DNA of 60,198 nt from a phage (GCA_018175315.1 GCA_018175315.1_4769.1); one strand, 5' to 3'. Numbered from the stretch's first letter, positions 893-31,615 are shown. The notes: generated by a model from the letters alone, not told the origin. Program-made: numbers and translations.

Positions 893-2869
893 ATGAATCT
901 CCGCGATTATCAACAGGAAGCAGTCTATAGCGTTTTTCGCTATTTTGACGCTGAAAAGGGTAACGCGGGGAACCCTTTAATCCTGTTACCGACAGGGACA
1001 GGAAAATCGCTCGTTATCGCGGGGTTCCTCGATCTGCTTTATAAATGGTATCCAAACCAACGCGTAATGATGCTAACTCATGTCAAAGAGCTGATTGCGC
1101 AAAACTACGATAAATTAATGAAAGTCTGGCCCGAAGCGCCAGCAGGTATTTACAGCGCGGGTTTGAAGCGTAAAGAAGTCTATAATCTTATTACCTTTGC
1201 AGGGATTGCGTCCGTTGCTAAGCATCCGAAAAAGTTCGGCAAAGTTGATCTTATTTTTGTGGACGAAGCGCATCTTATTAGTCCGCGTGATGCAACAATG
1301 TATAAGAAGTTCTTTGCAGCGTTGCGTGAAGTTAACCCTTACTTAAAAATCATCGGCCTTACTGCTACACCTTATCGACTGGGGTATGGTTCAATTGTCA
1401 AGGAAAACGAAGACGATGATGCGTTATTTGATAAGGTAACATTCGATGCAACTACTCCGGAAGCCTTCAACTGGTTCCTGGAGCAGGGTTATCTTCTTCC
1501 GGTTGTGCCAAAGCGTACTAAGATGGAACTGGACCTCAACGGGGTAGGTAAACGCGGCGGTGAGTTTATCCAGAGTGAGTTGCAAAGTGCGGTAAATCGC
1601 GATGACGCAACACTCCGCGCACTTGAGGAAGCGATTGAATGTGGTGAAGACCGTCAAAGCTGGCTTATATTTTGTTCTGGCATTGAACACGCTAAAGACG
1701 CGTGCGATATGCTGAACGATATGGGTATTAGCTGTGGATGTATTCACTCTAAGCTTGATGCAAAAGAACGTGACGAGATTATTGAAAAATTCAAGCGCGG
1801 TGAATTTCGAGCATTAACTAACAATAACGTCTTAACCACAGGTTTTGATCACCCAATGCTGGACTTAATTATCATGCTCCGCCCAACTGCGTCGGCGGTG
1901 CTATGGGTCCAGATGCTGGGTCGCGGTACGCGTCCGGTGTACGCGGAGGGCTTTGATCTTTCCACGCAGGAGGGGCGCTTACAAGCTATTGCGGCAAGCC
2001 CTAAGCAGAACTGCCTTGTACTGGATTTCAGCGGTAATACGCGGCGTTTAGGCCCTATTAACGACCCTGTTAAGCCCAAGCGCCCTGGCGAAAAAGGTGC
2101 TGGTACTGCTCCGGTTAAAGAATGCGATGTATGCGGGTCGTATAATCATGCATCCGCTCGTTATTGCGGTGGCTTCGCACCAATCCCAATGGACAGCGTT
2201 ACACAGGAACAAGTTCAACAATTATATCTGAAAGGATTTAGACTACGCGGGACGGATTACGTCAAAGAAGGCTTTTGCGGTCATGAGTTTAAGTTCCAGA
2301 CCAAACTCAAGAAAGCTGCAAGTACGGAAGCCCTGATCAAGCAGGATATTCCAATAGTTGAAGACTTTAAAGTTACGCATGTTACTTATGCGAAGCACAC
2401 TAAACGCAATGACAGCTCTAAACCTCCAACAATGAAGGTGACTTATTATTGCGGTAGTAAAATATTCAGCGAATGGGTAGCTCTACTTCACGGTGACTGG
2501 GCAGGTCGTAAAGCGGTTGCATGGTGGAAGAAAAGGACTCATCTTCCTTTACCACAAACTATTGAAGAAGCTCTTGATGTTGCTGCAATGCTCAAAACAC
2601 CGAAATACATCAAAGTTCATACCAATAAGAAATGGCCTGAGATATTGAACTATGATTATGATGGTACGTGTTTCGGTAAGTTTGAAGCACCACAGGACGA
2701 CGAAGCTATTCAGGTTAAAGTATACGGGCAGGATGGAACAACAGAAGGTCCAAGCTATAACGATGATGTGAGCTGGGATGATATTGTTTCACAGAATACG
2801 CAAGGTATAACAGTGAACAATGTGGTTAATCCTGTGCAAGTAGATGATCCGGATTACGTTCCGTTCTAA
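893..2869 (+). CDS. SF2 DEAH-box helicase
   Basis: Walker A LLPTGTGKS, DEAH box (FVDEAHLIS), helicase C-terminal motifs (MLGRGTRP); Cys cluster CDVCGSYNHASARYCGG; ATG 3 nt after upstream stop. Confidence 0.75.
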   Translation: MNLRDYQQEAVYSVFRYFDAEKGNAGNPLILLPTGTGKSLVIAGFLDLLYKWYPNQRVMMLTHVKELIAQNYDKLMKVWPEAPAGIYSAGLKRKEVYNLITFAGIASVAKHPKKFGKVDLIFVDEAHLISPRDATMYKKFFAALREVNPYLKIIGLTATPYRLGYGSIVKENEDDDALFDKVTFDATTPEAFNWFLEQGYLLPVVPKRTKMELDLNGVGKRGGEFIQSELQSAVNRDDATLRALEEAIECGEDRQSWLIFCSGIEHAKDACDMLNDMGISCGCIHSKLDAKERDEIIEKFKRGEFRALTNNNVLTTGFDHPMLDLIIMLRPTASAVLWVQMLGRGTRPVYAEGFDLSTQEGRLQAIAASPKQNCLVLDFSGNTRRLGPINDPVKPKRPGEKGAGTAPVKECDVCGSYNHASARYCGGFAPIPMDSVTQEQVQQLYLKGFRLRGTDYVKEGFCGHEFKFQTKLKKAASTEALIKQDIPIVEDFKVTHVTYAKHTKRNDSSKPPTMKVTYYCGSKIFSEWVALLHGDWAGRKAVAWWKKRTHLPLPQTIEEALDVAAMLKTPKYIKVHTNKKWPEILNYDYDGTCFGKFEAPQDDEAIQVKVYGQDGTTEGPSYNDDVSWDDIVSQNTQGITVNNVVNPVQVDDPDYVPF

Positions 2870-3423: not shown

Positions 3424-3550
3424 TAAGTTCTAACCCTGATCAAAAATATTTTTAAAAATGTTTATGTAAGGGGTTGCGTGTCACAAAATCCTTTGGTACA
3501 TTTAACCCCGTTGGTAACAAACGAACCCATAATAATTCGGAGTGAAGAAA

Positions 3551-4354
3551 ATGAGTAATATTGAAGATAAGAAAGCCGCTGCTGCCGCAGCCGCTGCTGC
3601 CGCTGCAAAATCTGCTAAGCCTGCAAAGAAAGAAGCTACTGCTAACGACGCAGAAGCTAAAAAAGCCGCTGCCGCTGAAGCTGCACGCGTAGCGAAAGAG
3701 AAAAAAGAAGCAGAGAAAAAAGCTGCCGCTGAAAAGAAACAAGCTGAAATTCGTACTGAAGCGGAAAATAAATTTACCGCTCTTTCCCAGGCAGTTGAAA
3801 CCGTGAAGTTTGCTTTATCCGGTATTACCGATGAAAGCACTGTTGAACAGATTACGGAAGCAGAATCTAAGGGTTCTGAACAGCTGAAGCATTTAAAGAA
3901 TGCTCTGAAAGATCTGAAAGCAGTTGTTAAAAAATCCAAAGGTGAAGATCTGTCCGGTGCAGTAACTGCTGCTCAGAGCATGGTCGACGAACTGGATTCG
4001 TCTATCAAAGGCTTCAAAGACAAGATCCGCGCTGCTAAACAGGCTGAAAAGGCTGCTGAAAAAGCCCGCGAAAAAGCTGAACGTGAAAAAGCGAAAGAAG
4101 CGAACCGTATGCCTGAACAGAATGGTGTTCGTCGTCCGCAACCGGAAACTTCCTGCGGTCGTGCCTGGGCTCTGATGGACCAGATTAGCGCTACGCTGGG
4201 TCAGCCTGCTCCGATCTCTTATGTTCTGAATCTGGCAGGTCGTCACGGTCTGAACGAAGATACTGTTAAAACTCAGTATGCACGTTGGAAGAAGTTTAAT
4301 GGTGTGACTGGTCGCGTACCTATGCCAGTACCGGAAGCCCTGAACGGCTTGTAA
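3551..4354 (+). CDS. Ala/Lys-rich low-complexity protein (histone H1-like composition) with globular C-terminal domain
   Basis: GGAG RBS 8 nt before ATG 3551 (ORF track begins at GTG 3542); poly-Ala run and KKEAEKKAAAEKK-type repeats. Confidence 0.55.
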   Translation: MSNIEDKKAAAAAAAAAAAKSAKPAKKEATANDAEAKKAAAAEAARVAKEKKEAEKKAAAEKKQAEIRTEAENKFTALSQAVETVKFALSGITDESTVEQITEAESKGSEQLKHLKNALKDLKAVVKKSKGEDLSGAVTAAQSMVDELDSSIKGFKDKIRAAKQAEKAAEKAREKAEREKAKEANRMPEQNGVRRPQPETSCGRAWALMDQISATLGQPAPISYVLNLAGRHGLNEDTVKTQYARWKKFNGVTGRVPMPVPEALNGL

Positions 4355-26760: not shown

Positions 26761-29700
26761 TTACCCCATTGCAGTTCTACGAATTGTTCCTCGGGATGCA
26801 AAGTCTGTAAGAACTTTATTATATCCCTGCTCCGCACCATCACGAGCCGCTTGCTGCATGGCTTGCGTGAGTGCAGCATCGCCATTTCCTTGCACCGTGA
26901 TATACTGGACAATGCTAACACCACCGGACATATTCACGCCACCTTGTTGTGAAGCTTGACTATCCAGGAAGCGATTTAACTTGTCATTAGACGGAGCATT
27001 GAGTACACGTTCACCCTTATCCAGCAACCATGTACCTTCACGAGGAACGTTATCGATACCGTCGTGAGCCATACCAGCAATTGCTAAGCCCCCCACAGTA
27101 GCGGCGGACGCATAACCCATAGCTTTCACTATACCAGCCATAGCTGCACCCATTGTAGCACCGCCTTGCTGTGTACCCCATGCAAGCGCTGCGGATGCTG
27201 CCGTTTCCGTGTTGGCAAGGATTGACGGGATTTGCATTGCTTTCTGTGCGGCAAACATTGCCTTATAAATAAAGTTCTGTTTACTAACACCTTCTTCCAG
27301 CCCTGACAAAATAATACCCAATGATTCCTGAGAAAAGGATATCATTCGGTTCATAAGAACTTTATCCAGGTTTTCCCTTTCCATGCTTGCTTTTTTCAGC
27401 ACTTGGGTTTTAGCATCTTCGTAAAGCTGATAGTAAGCTAAATCATCCGCTCGCTGTTTAGCAGTAAGCTCAGCAATCTTCGTATTTTGCTCGTACGCGA
27501 TTTTTTCATAGTCCGTCATACCTTCATCTAACAGACCCTGAGCAAACTTACGATTCTTCTTACGCTCGTCCAGTTTCTTTTGAGCTTCTTCTGCATCGTA
27601 AATTGCAGCGGCAAGACTAACGACTTCTGCTTTTTCCGCAGCCGTTGCGGACGCATTTAACTTATTGAGTGCCACAGCTTGCGCTTTAGCTTTAGCGTTT
27701 TCCTTAACCCCTGTGGTTACTTCGTTAAGCTTGTTGCGTAAATCGTCAATAACTTTGGCGTTCTGTTGTTCTGCTTTAATACCGTCTTTTGTCGCTTTAG
27801 TTCGGTTCCTCTCCGCTTCCTCGAGATCGTAGTTTTTGCCAAGAGCTTGCGCTAAATCTTGAGCATATTTAACAAGCTCTTTAGCGGATTCGCTTGTTGC
27901 CTCTGAGCTAACGTCCTGACCCATAGCTACTTTGCGAATAAGACTTCCGTATGTATCCGCATCCTTGCCCAGCGTCTGATACAGTCCACTAAGGATTGCA
28001 GCTTGGCGAGCATTGCCAGCACCCTTAACCGTGTTAACATCAATCTCACGGTTGACATCACCTAGCTGACCTTTAAAACGGTCAAGGACTTTCTCGTCAA
28101 TAAGTGGACCGGATTTGATGTTAAGAACGGCCTTCATATCAGCAGCAAGCTGACGAGCTAACGGAATTATCTTCTCGATAGCAGGGCTTGTCATTTCTAA
28201 GACATTGTTGTAACGGCGTTGAGCTTCTTCAGCACGTTCAGCAGCTAGCTTGACGTTATCCGTAGCAATCTGTAAGTTCTTTTCCGCACTAGCAGTATCT
28301 CGACCGGATGCAGCTCGACGTTTTAATTGTGCTTCGTAGAACTTTTGCGTTTCTGTTGCAGATTTTAGAGCGGTCTGTTCCCGCTTCATTTGCTCTTCAA
28401 GTTCAGGAAGTATTGCGCGAGCTTTGACAGCGTTAGCTGCCAGCTGAGCTTCCGTCATCTGCATTAGTTTTTCGCGTACACTATCAACACTATCTGCAAA
28501 CTGATTGTTTTCCGCACGACCAGCTTCCAGCGACGCTTTATAGGAGTAAATTGCACCCGCTGCCAGCATTGCTACACCAACAGGACCACCAATTAACCCC
28601 ATAGCACCGCGCAGCACGCTCATTGCTGTAGCGGCTCGGCTTGCGGCTGGTACGGTTGCATTGAGCGCAGCATTGAGCGCTTGCCGCGCTTGTACGTCCG
28701 CCATAATTGCCGCAGAATGCGCACGGGTAGCGTTAATAAGAGCAAGACGTGCGCCTGCTTCCGCTGCCGTACCTTTAGCAACTGCTAATGCACCGCGTGC
28801 CACCTGCAACGATGCAAGCGAAGCAGCACGATCCGCAGCCGCTTTCTGTGCGGTAACGCCAATAGAGCTTTGCATCACCGCCGTAGTTGCCGCCGTTTGT
28901 GCAGCTTCCATCCGTGATGCTTTTGCAGCAGCTATAGACGCTTTAGTCTTAGCAAGCATTGCCGTAATGATACGGGCGGTAATCACTGTGGCTAAAGCTG
29001 AACCAACCGTTACAACCGTTCCTAAGTTTTCGGATAATGCAACAAACGTCTGTCCCAATGCAGCAACCGCACCTTGAGTCTTTTGGGATTCACCCATAAA
29101 CTTAGTCAGGTTGTTTGTTGCAACTGTCCATTGCCGGTTGAACGTTGGCATAGTGCGGCTAAATTCTTTATCAATTGTATCCGCAGCACCAGACAACGAT
29201 TTGATAACCACATCTGATGTTAACTTTCCGCTGTACGCCAGCTCACGCAATTGTCCAATGGTAACGCCTAACGAATCGGACATGATTTGAGTTAAGCGCG
29301 GTGCCTGTTCTGCAACAGATCGGAATTCATCCCCGCGCAAAACACCGGATGCCATCGCTTGCGAAAACTGAATAAGAGCAGCACTTGCTTCATGGGATGT
29401 TGCACCGGAAACAATCATTGCTTTGTTAATTGTTTCCGTGATACGTCCAAGCTCCATACCAGTCATACCAGTATTCTTCATCGCACGCTGGAGACGGGAG
29501 TACAGAGTTGCAGTCGCTTCCAAGCTTGTACGTGACCGCTGGGCAATATCAAACACGCGTTGCTGCGCATCCGCAACGGTTTCATTACCCGTACGAGCCA
29601 GTTCAAGTTTGTTGGTGAGGATAGTCCAGGAGTCCGATAGCGAAATAACACGGCTAATAGTGTCAACGCTAATCATTCCTACAATTGCAGCATCCAAACG

Positions 29701-29877
29701 ACTTGTGACAGTTGCAAGTTCGTTAGATGTGTTAGACAATGTTTTATAGCTGGAGGTAACACGTTGAGCAGACCGCTCCGCTGTGTCACCTGTACGCGCT
29801 AAGTTCCGCAACATGGAGTCCGCGGTACTAATCCCTCTCGCGTCAACTCTGATTACTAGCGAAGCGGTTTCGGCCAT
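26761..29877 (-). CDS. tail tape measure protein
   Basis: 1038 aa, long Ala-rich alpha-helical/coiled-coil protein; AGGAGAAG RBS; ATG overlaps stop of chaperone extension frame (TAATG). Confidence 0.85.
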   Translation of the reverse strand: MAETASLVIRVDARGISTADSMLRNLARTGDTAERSAQRVTSSYKTLSNTSNELATVTSRLDAAIVGMISVDTISRVISLSDSWTILTNKLELARTGNETVADAQQRVFDIAQRSRTSLEATATLYSRLQRAMKNTGMTGMELGRITETINKAMIVSGATSHEASAALIQFSQAMASGVLRGDEFRSVAEQAPRLTQIMSDSLGVTIGQLRELAYSGKLTSDVVIKSLSGAADTIDKEFSRTMPTFNRQWTVATNNLTKFMGESQKTQGAVAALGQTFVALSENLGTVVTVGSALATVITARIITAMLAKTKASIAAAKASRMEAAQTAATTAVMQSSIGVTAQKAAADRAASLASLQVARGALAVAKGTAAEAGARLALINATRAHSAAIMADVQARQALNAALNATVPAASRAATAMSVLRGAMGLIGGPVGVAMLAAGAIYSYKASLEAGRAENNQFADSVDSVREKLMQMTEAQLAANAVKARAILPELEEQMKREQTALKSATETQKFYEAQLKRRAASGRDTASAEKNLQIATDNVKLAAERAEEAQRRYNNVLEMTSPAIEKIIPLARQLAADMKAVLNIKSGPLIDEKVLDRFKGQLGDVNREIDVNTVKGAGNARQAAILSGLYQTLGKDADTYGSLIRKVAMGQDVSSEATSESAKELVKYAQDLAQALGKNYDLEEAERNRTKATKDGIKAEQQNAKVIDDLRNKLNEVTTGVKENAKAKAQAVALNKLNASATAAEKAEVVSLAAAIYDAEEAQKKLDERKKNRKFAQGLLDEGMTDYEKIAYEQNTKIAELTAKQRADDLAYYQLYEDAKTQVLKKASMERENLDKVLMNRMISFSQESLGIILSGLEEGVSKQNFIYKAMFAAQKAMQIPSILANTETAASAALAWGTQQGGATMGAAMAGIVKAMGYASAATVGGLAIAGMAHDGIDNVPREGTWLLDKGERVLNAPSNDKLNRFLDSQASQQGGVNMSGGVSIVQYITVQGNGDAALTQAMQQAARDGAEQGYNKVLTDFASRGTIRRTAMG

Positions 29878-30682
29878 TATCTTCTCCTTTTTCTTCTACC
29901 TTTATTTTGATTTTGCATTTGACTTTCCATGAGTTTAGCATTTTGTTCAGCTTCTGACACGCGCTTTTCAAGCCATAGCTGCCGCAGTATTTCGCATTCG
30001 TACGGTTGAAGACGTAAGCCCATTGTCACTTGATAGCTGTGCAATTCTGTATAACTAAAATCTCCTCCAGTGTAGATATCATCAAATAAAGTAGATAGAT
30101 ATTCGAAGCAAAGCGGTATTTCCTTTTCCCGATATTCTTTAAGCTTAGGTGGCGTCTTACCAGACTGTTCCTCAACCTTTTGCAGTTGCGATAATAAAGA
30201 AGATCCCCCGCCGGGGACTTTGCTATTTAGTTCCCATTGGAGGATCTTCTTATCAATTAACTGTCTGCGCGCTTTTAGAAAAAATTACTATCTTTAGCGG
30301 CAAATACGTTAAGGTCTTCTCGGACAGTTGGGTTCTCCGTTAAGAACTCAAACACGTTATCAACAGTCGGTGGCTCGTCAAAAGTCCAACCTGCTACAAG
30401 GTTACACAGTGAACGGGTAAGGATATCTTCCTTCATAGCATCCGTTACTTCACCGTCTTTACCCTGCATAAGCGCCAACAGTTGACGCTGTGCTTTCAAT
30501 TCTGCGTCACGATACTCTGTGCAGTAGCGGCTACGAATGTAGAGTTTTTCGCCCGTGTCGCCTACACCAGGAATAACCACATTCATTGGCTTAGTGTTTG
30601 CCGGGTCATTTGCCCGGCTCACAGTTTTAAAATCACGGAAGCTTTTAGCTACTGCAACTTTGGCTTTTTTGGTGTCGGTCAT
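29877..30682 (-). CDS. tail assembly chaperone, -1 frameshift-extended form (lambda GT-like)
   Basis: Hand translation of the -1 frame from the slippery site (30278-30284) stays open for about 130 codons and stops at TAA 29877-29879, overlapping the tape measure ATG. Confidence 0.55.
30275..30682 (-). CDS. tail assembly chaperone (lambda G-like, short form)
   Basis: 135-aa ORF between major tail and tape measure genes; ends ...AATTTTTTCTAA, which contains slippery heptamer T_TTT_TTC. Confidence 0.65.
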   Translation of the reverse strand: MTDTKKAKVAVAKSFRDFKTVSRANDPANTKPMNVVIPGVGDTGEKLYIRSRYCTEYRDAELKAQRQLLALMQGKDGEVTDAMKEDILTRSLCNLVAGWTFDEPPTVDNVFEFLTENPTVREDLNVFAAKDSNFF

Positions 30683-30691
30683 TTCTTATCC

Positions 30692-31615
30692 TTATGCTGC
30701 CGCTAAAACGCGGGTAATTTTGATGGAACTTGCGGTTGTTGGGTCCAGCAATCCGCGGTAGCCCATATTAAGCATGATATCGCCTTCACCGTCAATAGGA
30801 CGCGGAGCCTCTGTGAATTTCACGCGAGGGATTTCCACGGTGTATTTTTGTTGCGGATTGCTTGGGTCAATCAGATCAAACTTGATTGAAGTTTCCACTT
30901 CATCCAGATACTTCTTACGCAGCTTGTTATCCAGGAAGTACACGTTAGCTGTACCAGTTACCGCACGGCGACCAGCGGACGGTTCAATGGAGAACTTAGA
31001 ACCAACAACAAAGCGTGGTGCAATATCGTTTTCAACGGTAAGACCGATTTCCGTAATAACGCTGATTTCTTCGTTGTTTTCCAGCAAGCGACCGGAGAAA
31101 CCATCCATCGGTGAAGTAGTTGTACGGTCTTTGATAGTTGCACCAGATGGGAGCGATTCCGCAATTTCCATCGAGCGACCGACAATGCCAAATTCCACTG
31201 TGGTCATGTTTTCCGCAGACAATGAGAAAGTCATGCTATTAACTTCGCAACCGCGATAAATTGTATATTTACCTGACGGCAGATCTGCGTTATAGTCTAC
31301 GAAAGTAAATGACTGGCGAACAATACCACCTTTAAGGACGTTCTCCTGCCATTCACCGCGCAGCGCTGCCGCAATGAGGTCGTCAAACGTACCGAAGGAC
31401 ATTTCGCCCGTTACCGTACCTTCAACGCTTCGAGCGCCAAGACGGAAGTCTGCGGTTTCTGCGTCATCACGCAGTTCTTCAGACTCCAGCGTCGCGATGT
31501 TAATATCCAGACCGGAACTCGTCACACGAAACGGGGTAAACTTTGCGTTCGCTGGAGTTGTGTTGCTCACATCTTCTTTGACGTAATAACACGAATAACG
31601 TGAACCTGTAGCCAT
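30692..31615 (-). CDS. major tail protein
   Basis: 307 aa, GAGG RBS; position directly upstream of chaperone pair. Confidence 0.65.
   Translation of the reverse strand: MATGSRYSCYYVKEDVSNTTPANAKFTPFRVTSSGLDINIATLESEELRDDAETADFRLGARSVEGTVTGEMSFGTFDDLIAAALRGEWQENVLKGGIVRQSFTFVDYNADLPSGKYTIYRGCEVNSMTFSLSAENMTTVEFGIVGRSMEIAESLPSGATIKDRTTTSPMDGFSGRLLENNEEISVITEIGLTVENDIAPRFVVGSKFSIEPSAGRRAVTGTANVYFLDNKLRKKYLDEVETSIKFDLIDPSNPQQKYTVEIPRVKFTEAPRPIDGEGDIMLNMGYRGLLDPTTASSIKITRVLAAA

What the first reader, a model, noticed from the sequence alone, without database searches (positions are those of the whole stretch)
29877..30682. Programmed -1 ribosomal frameshift in the tail assembly chaperone (G/GT-like)
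The 135-aa chaperone ORF ends AAT TTT TTC TAA; T_TTT_TTC is a plausible X_XXY_YYZ slippery heptamer (30278-30284, minus strand). Hand translation of the -1 frame from this site is open for about 130 codons and stops with a TAA that overlaps the tape measure ATG at 29877. This matches the conserved G/GT arrangement of long-tailed phages.
Basis: seen in the sequence. Interest (0 to 1): 0.5.

Follow-up and report, generated by a model that had tools for sequence, protein, structure and literature searches.

The report
Tail chaperone G/GT frameshift, already annotated
This is the ordinary programmed -1 ribosomal frameshift that long-tailed phages use to make a small amount of an extended tail-assembly chaperone; it is present in the sequence and strongly conserved, and GenBank already annotates it at the same site in the near-identical phage Seurat.

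Summary
The 135-aa ORF (30682..30275, minus strand) ends AAT TTT TTC TAA. The -1 frame has a TAA directly before the heptamer T_TTT_TTC (30284..30278). It then stays open for 133 codons, to a TAA that overlaps the tape-measure ATG (TAATG, 29879..29875).

The window is a Seuratvirus coliphage. GenBank record KM236243 (phage Seurat) already carries a joined CDS with "ribosomal slippage" at this heptamer, and my predicted fusion for Seurat equals its protein AIW03876.1 exactly. A 2014 paper reported G/T frameshifting on the same U-run in the related phage 9g.

Comparative evidence is very strong:
- In 60 of 60 related loci the T part lies in the -1 frame of the G part.
- 42 of those loci keep an in-phase T_TTT_TTC/A. 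The codon before it changes amino acid but always ends in T.
- The first 78 T codons have no start codon yet evolve as coding sequence.

No stable RNA structure lies at the canonical 5-9 nt spacing. A strong hairpin begins 22 nt downstream. The first ~36 T codons fold more stably than synonymous recodings in 21 of 21 lineages tested. Its role is unproven.

No experimental proof exists for this clade. Verdict: real, ordinary, already known.

The parts
30275..30682 (-). Gene G: 135-aa tail assembly (tape measure) chaperone, ATG 30682..30680, stop TAA 30277..30275
   Evidence: PHROG 569 (E 3e-26) and PHROG 313 'tail assembly chaperone' (E 3e-11). The exact protein is in public databases, named 'tape measure chaperone'.
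30278..30284 (-). Slippery heptamer T_TTT_TTC (U_UUU_UUC) in X_XXY_YYZ phase; codons AAT TTT TTC
   Evidence: Conserved in phase in 42 of 60 related loci and 16 codon contexts. Annotated as the slippage point in Seurat KM236243.
30285..30287 (-). TAA stop in the -1 frame directly 5' of the heptamer; it limits productive shifting to the heptamer
   Evidence: stop in the -1 frame at 30287..30285; overlap = 7 nt.
30275..30277 (-). Zero-frame stop TAA immediately 3' of the heptamer; a possible 'shifty stop' stimulator
   Evidence: A stop directly follows the heptamer in 22 of the 42 loci that carry the T-run.
29877..30278 (-). T extension: 133 codons in the -1 frame (LKARRQLIDKK...GRRKRRR) plus stop TAA 29879..29877
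   Evidence: Pfam PF23812 Phage_TAC_18 at 37.9 bits against a cutoff of 27. tblastn finds homologues in 92 phage records. Third-position substitution bias of 15/5/34 over the 78 start-less codons.
29877..30682 (-). Whole GT frameshift CDS (268-aa fusion ...AAKDSNFF|LKARR...)
   Evidence: It differs at 2 residues from Seurat AIW03876.1, whose sequence equals the reconstruction made the same way.
30192..30255 (-). Stable RNA hairpin inside the T frame (core stem AAGAAGAUCCUCC / GGGGGAUCUUCUU), beginning 22 nt 3' of the heptamer; role unproven
   Evidence: twelfth most stable non-overlapping 70-nt stretch on the minus strand; 24th of 12026 windows. Synonymous resampling; frozen synonymous sites.
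26761..29877 (-). Tape measure protein gene (1038 aa); its ATG overlaps the GT stop (TAATG)
   Evidence: TMP_3, E 2e-59; phrog_339, E 1e-177.
30692..31615 (-). Tail tube (major tail) protein gene immediately upstream of G
   Evidence: Phage_tube_2, E 2e-42.

Best explanation
Most ribosomes translating gene G read ...AAU UUU UUC and terminate at UAA, which gives the 135-aa chaperone G. A minority slip back one nucleotide on U_UUU_UUC. The host tRNA-Phe can re-pair in the -1 frame, UUU to UUU in the P site and UUC to UUU in the A site. Those ribosomes then read CUA AAA GCG... for 133 more codons and make the 268-aa fusion GT. GT ends one base into the tape-measure start codon.

By analogy with lambda gpG/gpGT, the G domains would coat the tape measure protein. 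The rarer T domain would recruit the tail tube protein, and the fixed low GT:G ratio would be set by the frameshift efficiency.

Shown here: the sequence anatomy, coding of the T frame without its own start, and conservation of the site at the nucleotide level. Inferred: that slippage happens, its efficiency, its stimulators (the adjacent stop codon and/or the downstream stem-loop), and the protein functions.
For: Anatomy:
- The heptamer is in the correct phase and the -1 frame is open for 133 codons (P about 2e-6).
- The 0/-1 overlap is exactly the heptamer.

Coding without a start:
- The first ATG/GTG/TTG in the T frame is 78 codons in (TTG 30044).
- Those 78 codons still show differences of 15/5/34 at codon positions 1/2/3 against phage STP-SP5.
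- They contain the invariant GKTP motif.

Homology:
- The T part matches Pfam Phage_TAC_18 above its cutoff in 8 of 8 aligned relatives.
- G and T map to the consecutive halves of phrog_569.
- Synteny is tube gene, G, T, tape measure gene.

Conservation:
- T lies in the -1 frame of G in 60 of 60 loci.
- An in-phase T_TTT_TTC/A is present in 42 of 60 loci, 36 of 51 unique.
- The preceding codon encodes N, L, D, A, R or S but always ends in T, and the first Phe codon is always TTT. This is nucleotide-level selection, not only protein-level selection.
- The fused proteins align colinearly, with the FF junction in one column.

Prior annotation and literature:
- Seurat KM236243 has a joined CDS noted 'ribosomal slippage (10236)'.
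- My reconstruction equals AIW03876.1/YP_009151957.1 exactly.
- Kulikov et al. 2014 reported G/T frameshifting on CCCUUUUUUU in phage 9g, with the run confirmed by Sanger sequencing (PMC4276943).
- The lambda mechanism and its 30:1 ratio are taken from Atkins et al. 2016 (PMC5009743).
Against: - I found no experimental detection of GT in any member of this clade.
- U-run heptamers are much less shift-prone in E. coli than A_AAA_AAG: U_UUU_UUA and U_UUU_UUU were the ones tested (PMC5009743). This fits a low-level shift but gives no estimate of efficiency.
- There is no stable structure at the canonical 5-9 nt spacing. The strong hairpin starts 22-26 nt downstream.
- No Shine-Dalgarno-like element lies upstream of the heptamer (direct reading).
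- The G part reaches Pfam Phage_TAC_4 only below its cutoff (E 0.048).
- No relative with a solved structure is detectable by sequence.
Confidence: 0.88

Rival explanations
1. Single-tRNA 'shifty stop' slippage. The ribosome pauses with peptidyl-tRNA-Phe on UUC in the P site and the UAA stop in the A site. Only the P-site tRNA slips back, onto UUU, and CUA is then decoded. This is a variant of ribosomal -1 frameshifting and gives the identical protein.
For: A zero-frame stop directly abuts the heptamer in the window and in 22 of the 42 loci that carry the T-run. No closely spaced RNA stimulator is present. Stops adjacent to shift sites are recognised stimulators (PMC5009743).
Against: In 20 of the 42 T-run loci the stop lies 3-93 nt further downstream, yet the full heptamer is still kept, including the first T that only a tandem slip needs. 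The two routes cannot be separated from sequence, because their products are identical.
Confidence: 0.2
2. Transcriptional slippage. RNA polymerase adds one extra U while copying the T6 run, and normal translation of that minority mRNA yields the same GT protein.
For: The site is a homopolymer run, T6 here and T7 in many relatives. One inserted U gives exactly ...NFFLK..., so the protein sequence cannot distinguish the two routes.
Against: Bacterial transcriptional slippage is described for runs of about 9 A or T (PMC5009743), and this run is 6-7. The run is kept in one codon phase with a fixed 3' C/A in 16 sequence contexts, as tandem tRNA re-pairing requires. It is never lengthened beyond 7, although a longer run would favour polymerase slippage.
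Confidence: 0.05
3. Two separate genes. The downstream frame is translated on its own from an internal start (TTG 30044 or ATG 30023), as some GenBank records annotate (the 48-aa ORF in phage WildeMaa), and no frameshift occurs.
For: Automatic annotations in several relatives call a short separate ORF.
Against: The 78 codons upstream of the first possible start are conserved as protein, with third-position bias. They also hold the most conserved motif of the family and the first ~31 of the 70 residues (T-part 35-104) that match Phage_TAC_18. No Shine-Dalgarno sequence precedes TTG 30044 or ATG 30023 (direct reading). Without a shift, 230 nt would be left non-coding in a tightly packed operon.
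Confidence: 0.03
4. Artefact. G and T are really one ORF, and a homopolymer sequencing error created the apparent frame change.
For: Homopolymer runs are error-prone on some sequencing platforms.
Against: The same -1 relation appears in 60 of 60 loci from independent isolates and metagenomes. The 9g run was confirmed by targeted Sanger sequencing (PMC4276943). In the window, TAA stops flank the heptamer in both frames.
Confidence: 0.01

Closest known systems
Escherichia phage Seurat CPT_Seurat13/14 'tape measure chaperone' (GenBank KM236243; AIW03877.1 / AIW03876.1)
   Same: Same genus and 97% nucleotide identity over this region. Identical heptamer and flanks. The joined CDS is annotated with ribosomal slippage at the same base. 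The 268-aa product differs from the window's at only 2 residues.
   Different: Nothing of substance. It is an annotation-level prediction only: the genome announcement lists a 'tape measure chaperone' without experiments (PMC4342423).
Bacteriophage lambda gpG / gpGT (-1 programmed frameshift; Levin et al. 1993; Xu, Hendrix and Duda 2004, 2013, 2014, as summarised in PMC5009743)
   Same: Two overlapping ORFs between the major tail gene and the tape measure gene. A -1 shift near the end of G. The fusion stops at the tape measure start. No closely spaced RNA stimulator is evident.
   Different: From my own knowledge, the lambda slippery site is G_GGA_AAG; here it is U_UUU_UUC, abutting the stop codon. 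No sequence similarity to lambda G or T was tested here. The T part belongs to Pfam Phage_TAC_18. The lambda ratio and binding roles are experimentally established, whereas here they are inferred.
Phage 9g (Nonagvirus) G/T chaperone (Kulikov et al. 2014, PMC4276943)
   Same: Same subfamily (Queuovirinae). The G and T parts are homologous (about 40% identity). The U-run slip site sits at the homologous FF position and is directly followed by UAA.
   Different: 9g has a U7 run (CUU UUU UUC). The paper calls the event a -2 shift, but in record NC_024146.1 the T frame is -1 from G.
HIV-1 gag-pol U_UUU_UUA and E. coli dnaX A_AAA_AAG -1 frameshift sites
   Same: X_XXY_YYZ tandem-slippage logic, and a U-run heptamer in the case of HIV-1 (PMC5009743).
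   Different: From my own knowledge, those sites depend on a stem-loop about 6-8 nt downstream, and dnaX also on an upstream Shine-Dalgarno-like element. Here the strong helix starts 22-26 nt downstream and no such upstream element is present.

Membership tests
Conserved G/GT tail assembly chaperone frameshift of long-tailed phages (Xu, Hendrix and Duda 2004) | Pair of ORFs located between the major tail (tube) gene and the tape measure gene | tested here: met
   Phage_tube_2 at 30692..31615 and TMP_3 at 26761..29877 flank the pair.
Conserved G/GT tail assembly chaperone frameshift of long-tailed phages (Xu, Hendrix and Duda 2004) | Second ORF overlaps the 3' end of the first in the -1 frame and lacks its own plausible start | tested here: met
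   -1 frame open 30284..29880. The first possible start codon is 78 codons in and has no Shine-Dalgarno sequence. The +1/-2 frame is open for only 7 codons.
Conserved G/GT tail assembly chaperone frameshift of long-tailed phages (Xu, Hendrix and Duda 2004) | Slippery X_XXY_YYZ sequence in the correct phase within the overlap | tested here: met
   T_TTT_TTC at 30284..30278 is the entire overlap.
Conserved G/GT tail assembly chaperone frameshift of long-tailed phages (Xu, Hendrix and Duda 2004) | Arrangement conserved in relatives despite sequence divergence | tested here: met
   60 of 60 loci have T in the -1 frame. 42 of 60 keep T_TTT_TTY. The most distant loci use A_AAT_TTT-type sites at the same place.
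Conserved G/GT tail assembly chaperone frameshift of long-tailed phages (Xu, Hendrix and Duda 2004) | Sequence membership of the G and T parts in curated tail assembly chaperone families | tested here: met
   T part: PF23812 Phage_TAC_18 at 37.9 bits against a cutoff of 27, matched by 8 of 8 relatives. G part: PHROG 313 'tail assembly chaperone', E 3e-11. The Pfam Phage_TAC_4 match for G is below cutoff (E 0.048), so the G part alone is only inconclusive in Pfam.
Conserved G/GT tail assembly chaperone frameshift of long-tailed phages (Xu, Hendrix and Duda 2004) | Frameshift product actually made, at a low fixed ratio to G | not testable with these tools
   No proteomic or reporter data were found for Seuratvirus, Nonagvirus or their relatives.
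Conserved G/GT tail assembly chaperone frameshift of long-tailed phages (Xu, Hendrix and Duda 2004) | G binds the tape measure protein, T binds the tube protein, and neither is in the virion | not testable with these tools
   Inferred from lambda only (PMC5009743).
Conserved G/GT tail assembly chaperone frameshift of long-tailed phages (Xu, Hendrix and Duda 2004) | Chaperone fold of the G domain | not tested
   A profile search of PDB sequences found nothing. No structure prediction was run, because it could not change the verdict.
Canonical stimulated -1 PRF signal (heptamer + 5-9 nt spacer + stem-loop or pseudoknot) | Stable RNA structure beginning 5-9 nt 3' of the heptamer | tested here: not met
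   The strong helix starts 22-26 nt downstream. Only weak, variable outer pairs reach to 4-15 nt. Relatives from Pseudomonas and Alteromonas phages do have hairpins at 2-7 nt. Rfam gave no match.

The most novel reading that the evidence does not exclude
In the enterobacterial Queuovirinae-like clade, the frameshift may not be driven by a canonical closely spaced stimulator. It may instead combine a stop-adjacent U-run with a selected RNA stem-loop more than 20 nt downstream. That stem-loop could tune frameshift efficiency in an unconventional way. Alternatively it could protect the rarely translated T region and the downstream tape measure message from Rho-dependent termination or RNase attack. 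The evidence shows excess structure beyond the coding constraint. It does not show what the structure does.
Probability: 0.2. Interest if true: 0.35.

Novelty: already known. Interest (0 to 1): 0.1.

Why it matters
The main value is for correct annotation.
- The closest database record (phiG7) and many other Seuratvirus records omit the GT product or call a spurious 48-aa ORF.
- RefSeq and PHROG 569 label the chaperone 'tail length tape measure protein'.
- The comparative table made here gives a clean rule for annotating this family: in-phase T_TTT_TTY at the FF junction, in 16 sequence contexts.

Biologically it is one more instance of a mechanism understood since 1993, so it opens no new question. 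The only mildly open point is the function of the conserved structured RNA just downstream of the slip site.

Tried and rejected
- +1/-2 frame: open for only 7 codons past the G stop, so the '-2' description published for 9g does not apply to the window, nor to the current 9g record.
- Independent promoter for T: none was found in 29600..31000.
- Intrinsic terminator reading of the hairpin: it was flagged by the consensus scan. Relatives lack the U-tail, however (my reading of the sequences), and it lies inside a conserved coding frame, so I did not adopt this reading.
- Rfam: only two sub-threshold antisense hits, mir-1002 and RAGATH-25. Rejected as chance.
- NCBIfam: no family. One meaningless weak hit at E 0.039 against a cutoff of 117 bits.
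- PDB sequence or profile search: nothing.
- Column-wise covariation of the hairpin: the hairpin register differs between lineages by a few nucleotides (from my own inspection of the folds), so an alignment-based test or a covariance model would be circular. I replaced it with a synonymous-resampling test with controls.
- A second pair of in-phase TTTTTTC at 3700..3721 (minus strand) looked like another candidate. It is antisense to a real Lys/Glu-rich gene on the plus strand (3542..4354), so it is spurious.
- Phage tRNAs that might affect Phe decoding: none are encoded.
- Three 194-aa ORFs downstream of the tape measure gene: they are unrelated proteins and the equal length is coincidental.
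- Structure prediction and large homology searches were not run. They could not change the verdict and are costly.

Full report
**What the window is.** The region 29700..30900 is 99.8% identical to Escherichia phage phiG7. It is 95-99% identical to about 30 other Seuratvirus (Queuovirinae) coliphages, including the type phage Seurat. All genes of the tail module lie on the minus strand.

**Check of the observation.**
- The ORF 30682..30275 encodes 135 aa and ends AAT TTT TTC TAA.
- T_TTT_TTC lies at 30284..30278 in X_XXY_YYZ phase.
- The -1 frame carries a TAA at 30287..30285, immediately before the heptamer. It is then open for 133 codons, down to TAA 29879..29877.
- That TAA overlaps the ATG (29877..29875) of the 1038-aa tape measure gene, as TAATG.
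- The zero and -1 frames therefore overlap by exactly the seven slippery nucleotides, so the heptamer is the only position at which a -1 shift could be productive.

Three results show this is more than chance.
- The -1 frames of the window's 34 long ORFs contain 9.4% stop codons, so a 133-codon open run has a chance probability near 2e-6.
- T6Y runs are strongly avoided in this genome: 10 found on both strands against 54.9 expected.
- The copy at the G stop is the only one in sense orientation and correct phase inside a credible gene. The pair at 3700..3721 is antisense to a real plus-strand gene.

**What the two parts are.**
- Upstream lies a tail tube gene (Pfam Phage_tube_2, E 2e-42). Downstream lies the tape measure gene (TMP_3, E 2e-59).
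- The -1 frame extension matches Pfam PF23812 Phage_TAC_18 (tail assembly chaperone) at 37.9 bits, against a cutoff of 27. All eight aligned relatives match it too.
- The G part matches PHROG 313 'tail assembly chaperone' (E 3e-11). Its Pfam match, Phage_TAC_4, is below threshold.
- G and T map to positions 11-126 and 130-256 of the single 256-position profile phrog_569, so that family was built from fused proteins.
- NCBIfam, PDB sequence search and Rfam add nothing.

**Is the T frame translated without its own start?** The first ATG/GTG/TTG in the T frame is TTG 30044, 78 codons downstream of the shift site, and nothing like a Shine-Dalgarno sequence precedes it. Those 78 codons nevertheless behave as coding sequence.
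- Against Salmonella phage STP-SP5 they differ at codon positions 1/2/3 in the ratio 15/5/34.
- tblastn with the T part finds homologues in 92 phage records. Many matches start at query residue 1-3, right at the junction.
- The invariant GKTP motif lies within this stretch.

**Comparative test of the slip site.** I fetched 12 annotated relatives and 46 IMG/VR loci. I then located the G and T parts with HMMs built from the fused alignment.
- In all 60 loci that contain both parts, T is in the -1 frame of G.
- Forty-two loci (36 of 51 unique) have T_TTT_TTC or T_TTT_TTA in phase within the overlap. They span Seuratvirus, Nonagvirus, Vidquintavirus, Craquatrovirus, Amoyvirus, Abidjanvirus and unclassified contigs.
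- Across 16 different local contexts the codon before the Phe-Phe pair encodes Asn, Leu, Asp, Ala, Arg or Ser, yet it always ends in T. The first Phe codon is always TTT, never TTC. This is selection on the nucleotide heptamer, not merely on the protein.
- The fused proteins align colinearly, with the junction in a single column.
- The remaining 18 distant loci carry A_AAT_TTT-type sequences at the same place.

**Prior knowledge.**
That base falls inside the same heptamer.
- The fusion I reconstruct from Seurat DNA is letter-for-letter AIW03876.1 / YP_009151957.1. A second 268-aa entry exists for phage vB_EcoS_SA126VB.
- The window's fusion differs from Seurat's at two residues.
- Kulikov et al. 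2014 reported G/T chaperones with a programmed frameshift on CCCUUUUUUU in the related phage 9g, with the run confirmed by Sanger sequencing (PMC4276943).
- The Seurat announcement itself only lists a tape measure chaperone (PMC4342423).
- I found no proteomic or reporter evidence for any member of this clade.
- The finding is therefore an already-annotated prediction of a well-known kind, not a new one.
- Annotation is uneven. phiG7, the closest record, has no T feature. Phage WildeMaa calls a 48-aa ORF. RefSeq names the chaperone 'tail length tape measure protein'.

**Mechanism.** The best-supported mechanism is ribosomal -1 slippage on U_UUU_UUC.
- From established knowledge, E. coli has a single tRNA-Phe species (anticodon GAA), which can re-pair with UUU in both sites.
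[quoted passage not shown] This fits the low-level shifting expected of a G/GT system, which is about 30:1 in lambda.
- A tandem slip, a P-site-only slip with the adjacent UAA in the A site, and insertion of one U by RNA polymerase all give the same protein (...DSNFF-LKARR...). Sequence and mass spectrometry cannot separate them.
- Retention of the complete heptamer in the 20 of 42 loci where the stop is 3-93 nt away favours the tandem model.
- The short run (6-7 T, never longer) argues against transcriptional slippage, which in bacteria is described for runs of about nine.
- The protein functions (G on the tape measure, T recruiting the tube protein) are inferred from lambda only.

- No stable element lies 5-10 nt downstream of the heptamer.
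- A strong hairpin occupies 30255..30192 (core AAGAAGAUCCUCC / GGGGGAUCUUCUU) and starts 22 nt after the heptamer.
- Its 70-nt window (-29.0 kcal/mol) ranks 24th of 12026 windows scanned on the minus strand of the 60 kb, and is the twelfth most stable non-overlapping stretch.
- Hairpins of different sequence lie 21-35 nt downstream in 9g-, Kpn2-P2-, EC151- and Vid5-like phages and several metagenomic lineages. Pseudomonas and Alteromonas relatives have one at 2-7 nt.
- The register shifts between lineages, so column-wise covariation is not informative.
- I therefore resampled synonymous codons while keeping the protein. The first 36 T codons fold more stably than the recoded versions in 21 of 21 lineages, with an empirical fraction of 0.017 or less in 11 of them (window 0.007).
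- In the 12 lineages with controls, 9 have z below -2.2, against 5% of 58 control segments taken from the G part, the later T part and the tape measure gene (control mean z -0.38).
- Synonymous sites are also frozen over the first ~30 T codons. Locus L019 shows 0 changes in 31 codons against 27 in the following 102, and the stem arms are unchanged in STP-SP5.
- The lineages are related, so these are not independent trials.
- The data show selected RNA structure just downstream of the slip site. They do not show whether it stimulates frameshifting, acts at a distance, or protects a sparsely translated stretch of mRNA.

**Verdict.** It is a textbook G/GT-type -1 programmed frameshift, already annotated at this exact site in the type phage of the genus and described for a sister genus. 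Interest is low. The only residual curiosity is the role of the conserved downstream structure and of the abutting stop codon.

Noticed in passing
window 30192..30255 (minus strand); homologous positions in L004-L010, L027, L030, L033, L035-L038: A strong hairpin starts 22 nt (21-35 nt in relatives) downstream of the slip site, with different sequences in different genera. The first 36 T codons are more structured than synonymous recodings in 21 of 21 lineages, and synonymous sites there are frozen. The spacing is too long for a canonical -1 PRF stimulator, and the function is unknown.
   Followed up: partly
L008 (phage 9g, NC_024146.1) 1462..1887: Kulikov et al. 2014 (PMC4276943) state that the 9g motif CCCUUUUUUU programs a -2 frameshift. 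In the current record (56,702 bp; the paper gives 56,703) the T frame is -1 relative to G, and the -2/+1 frame closes after 7 codons. The published '-2' looks like an error or reflects an earlier sequence version.
   Followed up: partly
L007, L030, L032, L034 (EC151-like) and L033: These lineages have two overlapping in-phase heptamers: T_TTT_TTA plus T_TTA_AAG, or T_TTA_AAC in L033. Either would give the same fusion. T_TTA_AAG ends in the A_AAG motif that the Atkins review describes as shift-prone in E. coli.
   Followed up: no
L044-L061 (distant IMG/VR relatives): At the homologous junction the T6 run is replaced by A_AAT_TTT, C_AAT_TTT or G_GTT_TTT (AAT TTT ACC/ATC; GTT TTT ACC). The -1 arrangement is kept, so the slip site has drifted within the family.
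   Followed up: partly
L011 (Aeromonas phage AP1, MT713136.1, about 240.6-241.3 kb) 1489..2121 (+): A T-part homologue (HMM E 1.5e-35) lies in a 211-codon open frame of a 254-kb Straboviridae genome. It has no G part nearby and is on the opposite strand to the annotated CDS AP1_0455. It may be a misannotation, a captured gene or an assembly chimera.
   Followed up: no
whole window: TTTTTTY occurs 10 times on both strands against 54.9 expected from dinucleotide shuffles. This is a strong genome-wide avoidance of T6/A6 runs.
   Followed up: partly
public records for this region (OQ791410 phiG7, MZ501112 WildeMaa, NC_027378, PHROG 569): Annotation is inconsistent. phiG7 lacks the T or GT feature. 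WildeMaa and others call a 48-aa ORF 'putative tape measure chaperone'. RefSeq and PHROG 569 label the chaperone 'tail length tape measure protein'.
   Followed up: yes
window 3542..4354 (+) and 3700..3721 (-): A 270-aa Lys/Ala/Glu-rich protein gene contains GAAAAAA repeats. Its antisense strand gives two in-phase TTTTTTC within shadow ORFs, which mimic a second frameshift candidate. This is spurious.
   Followed up: yes
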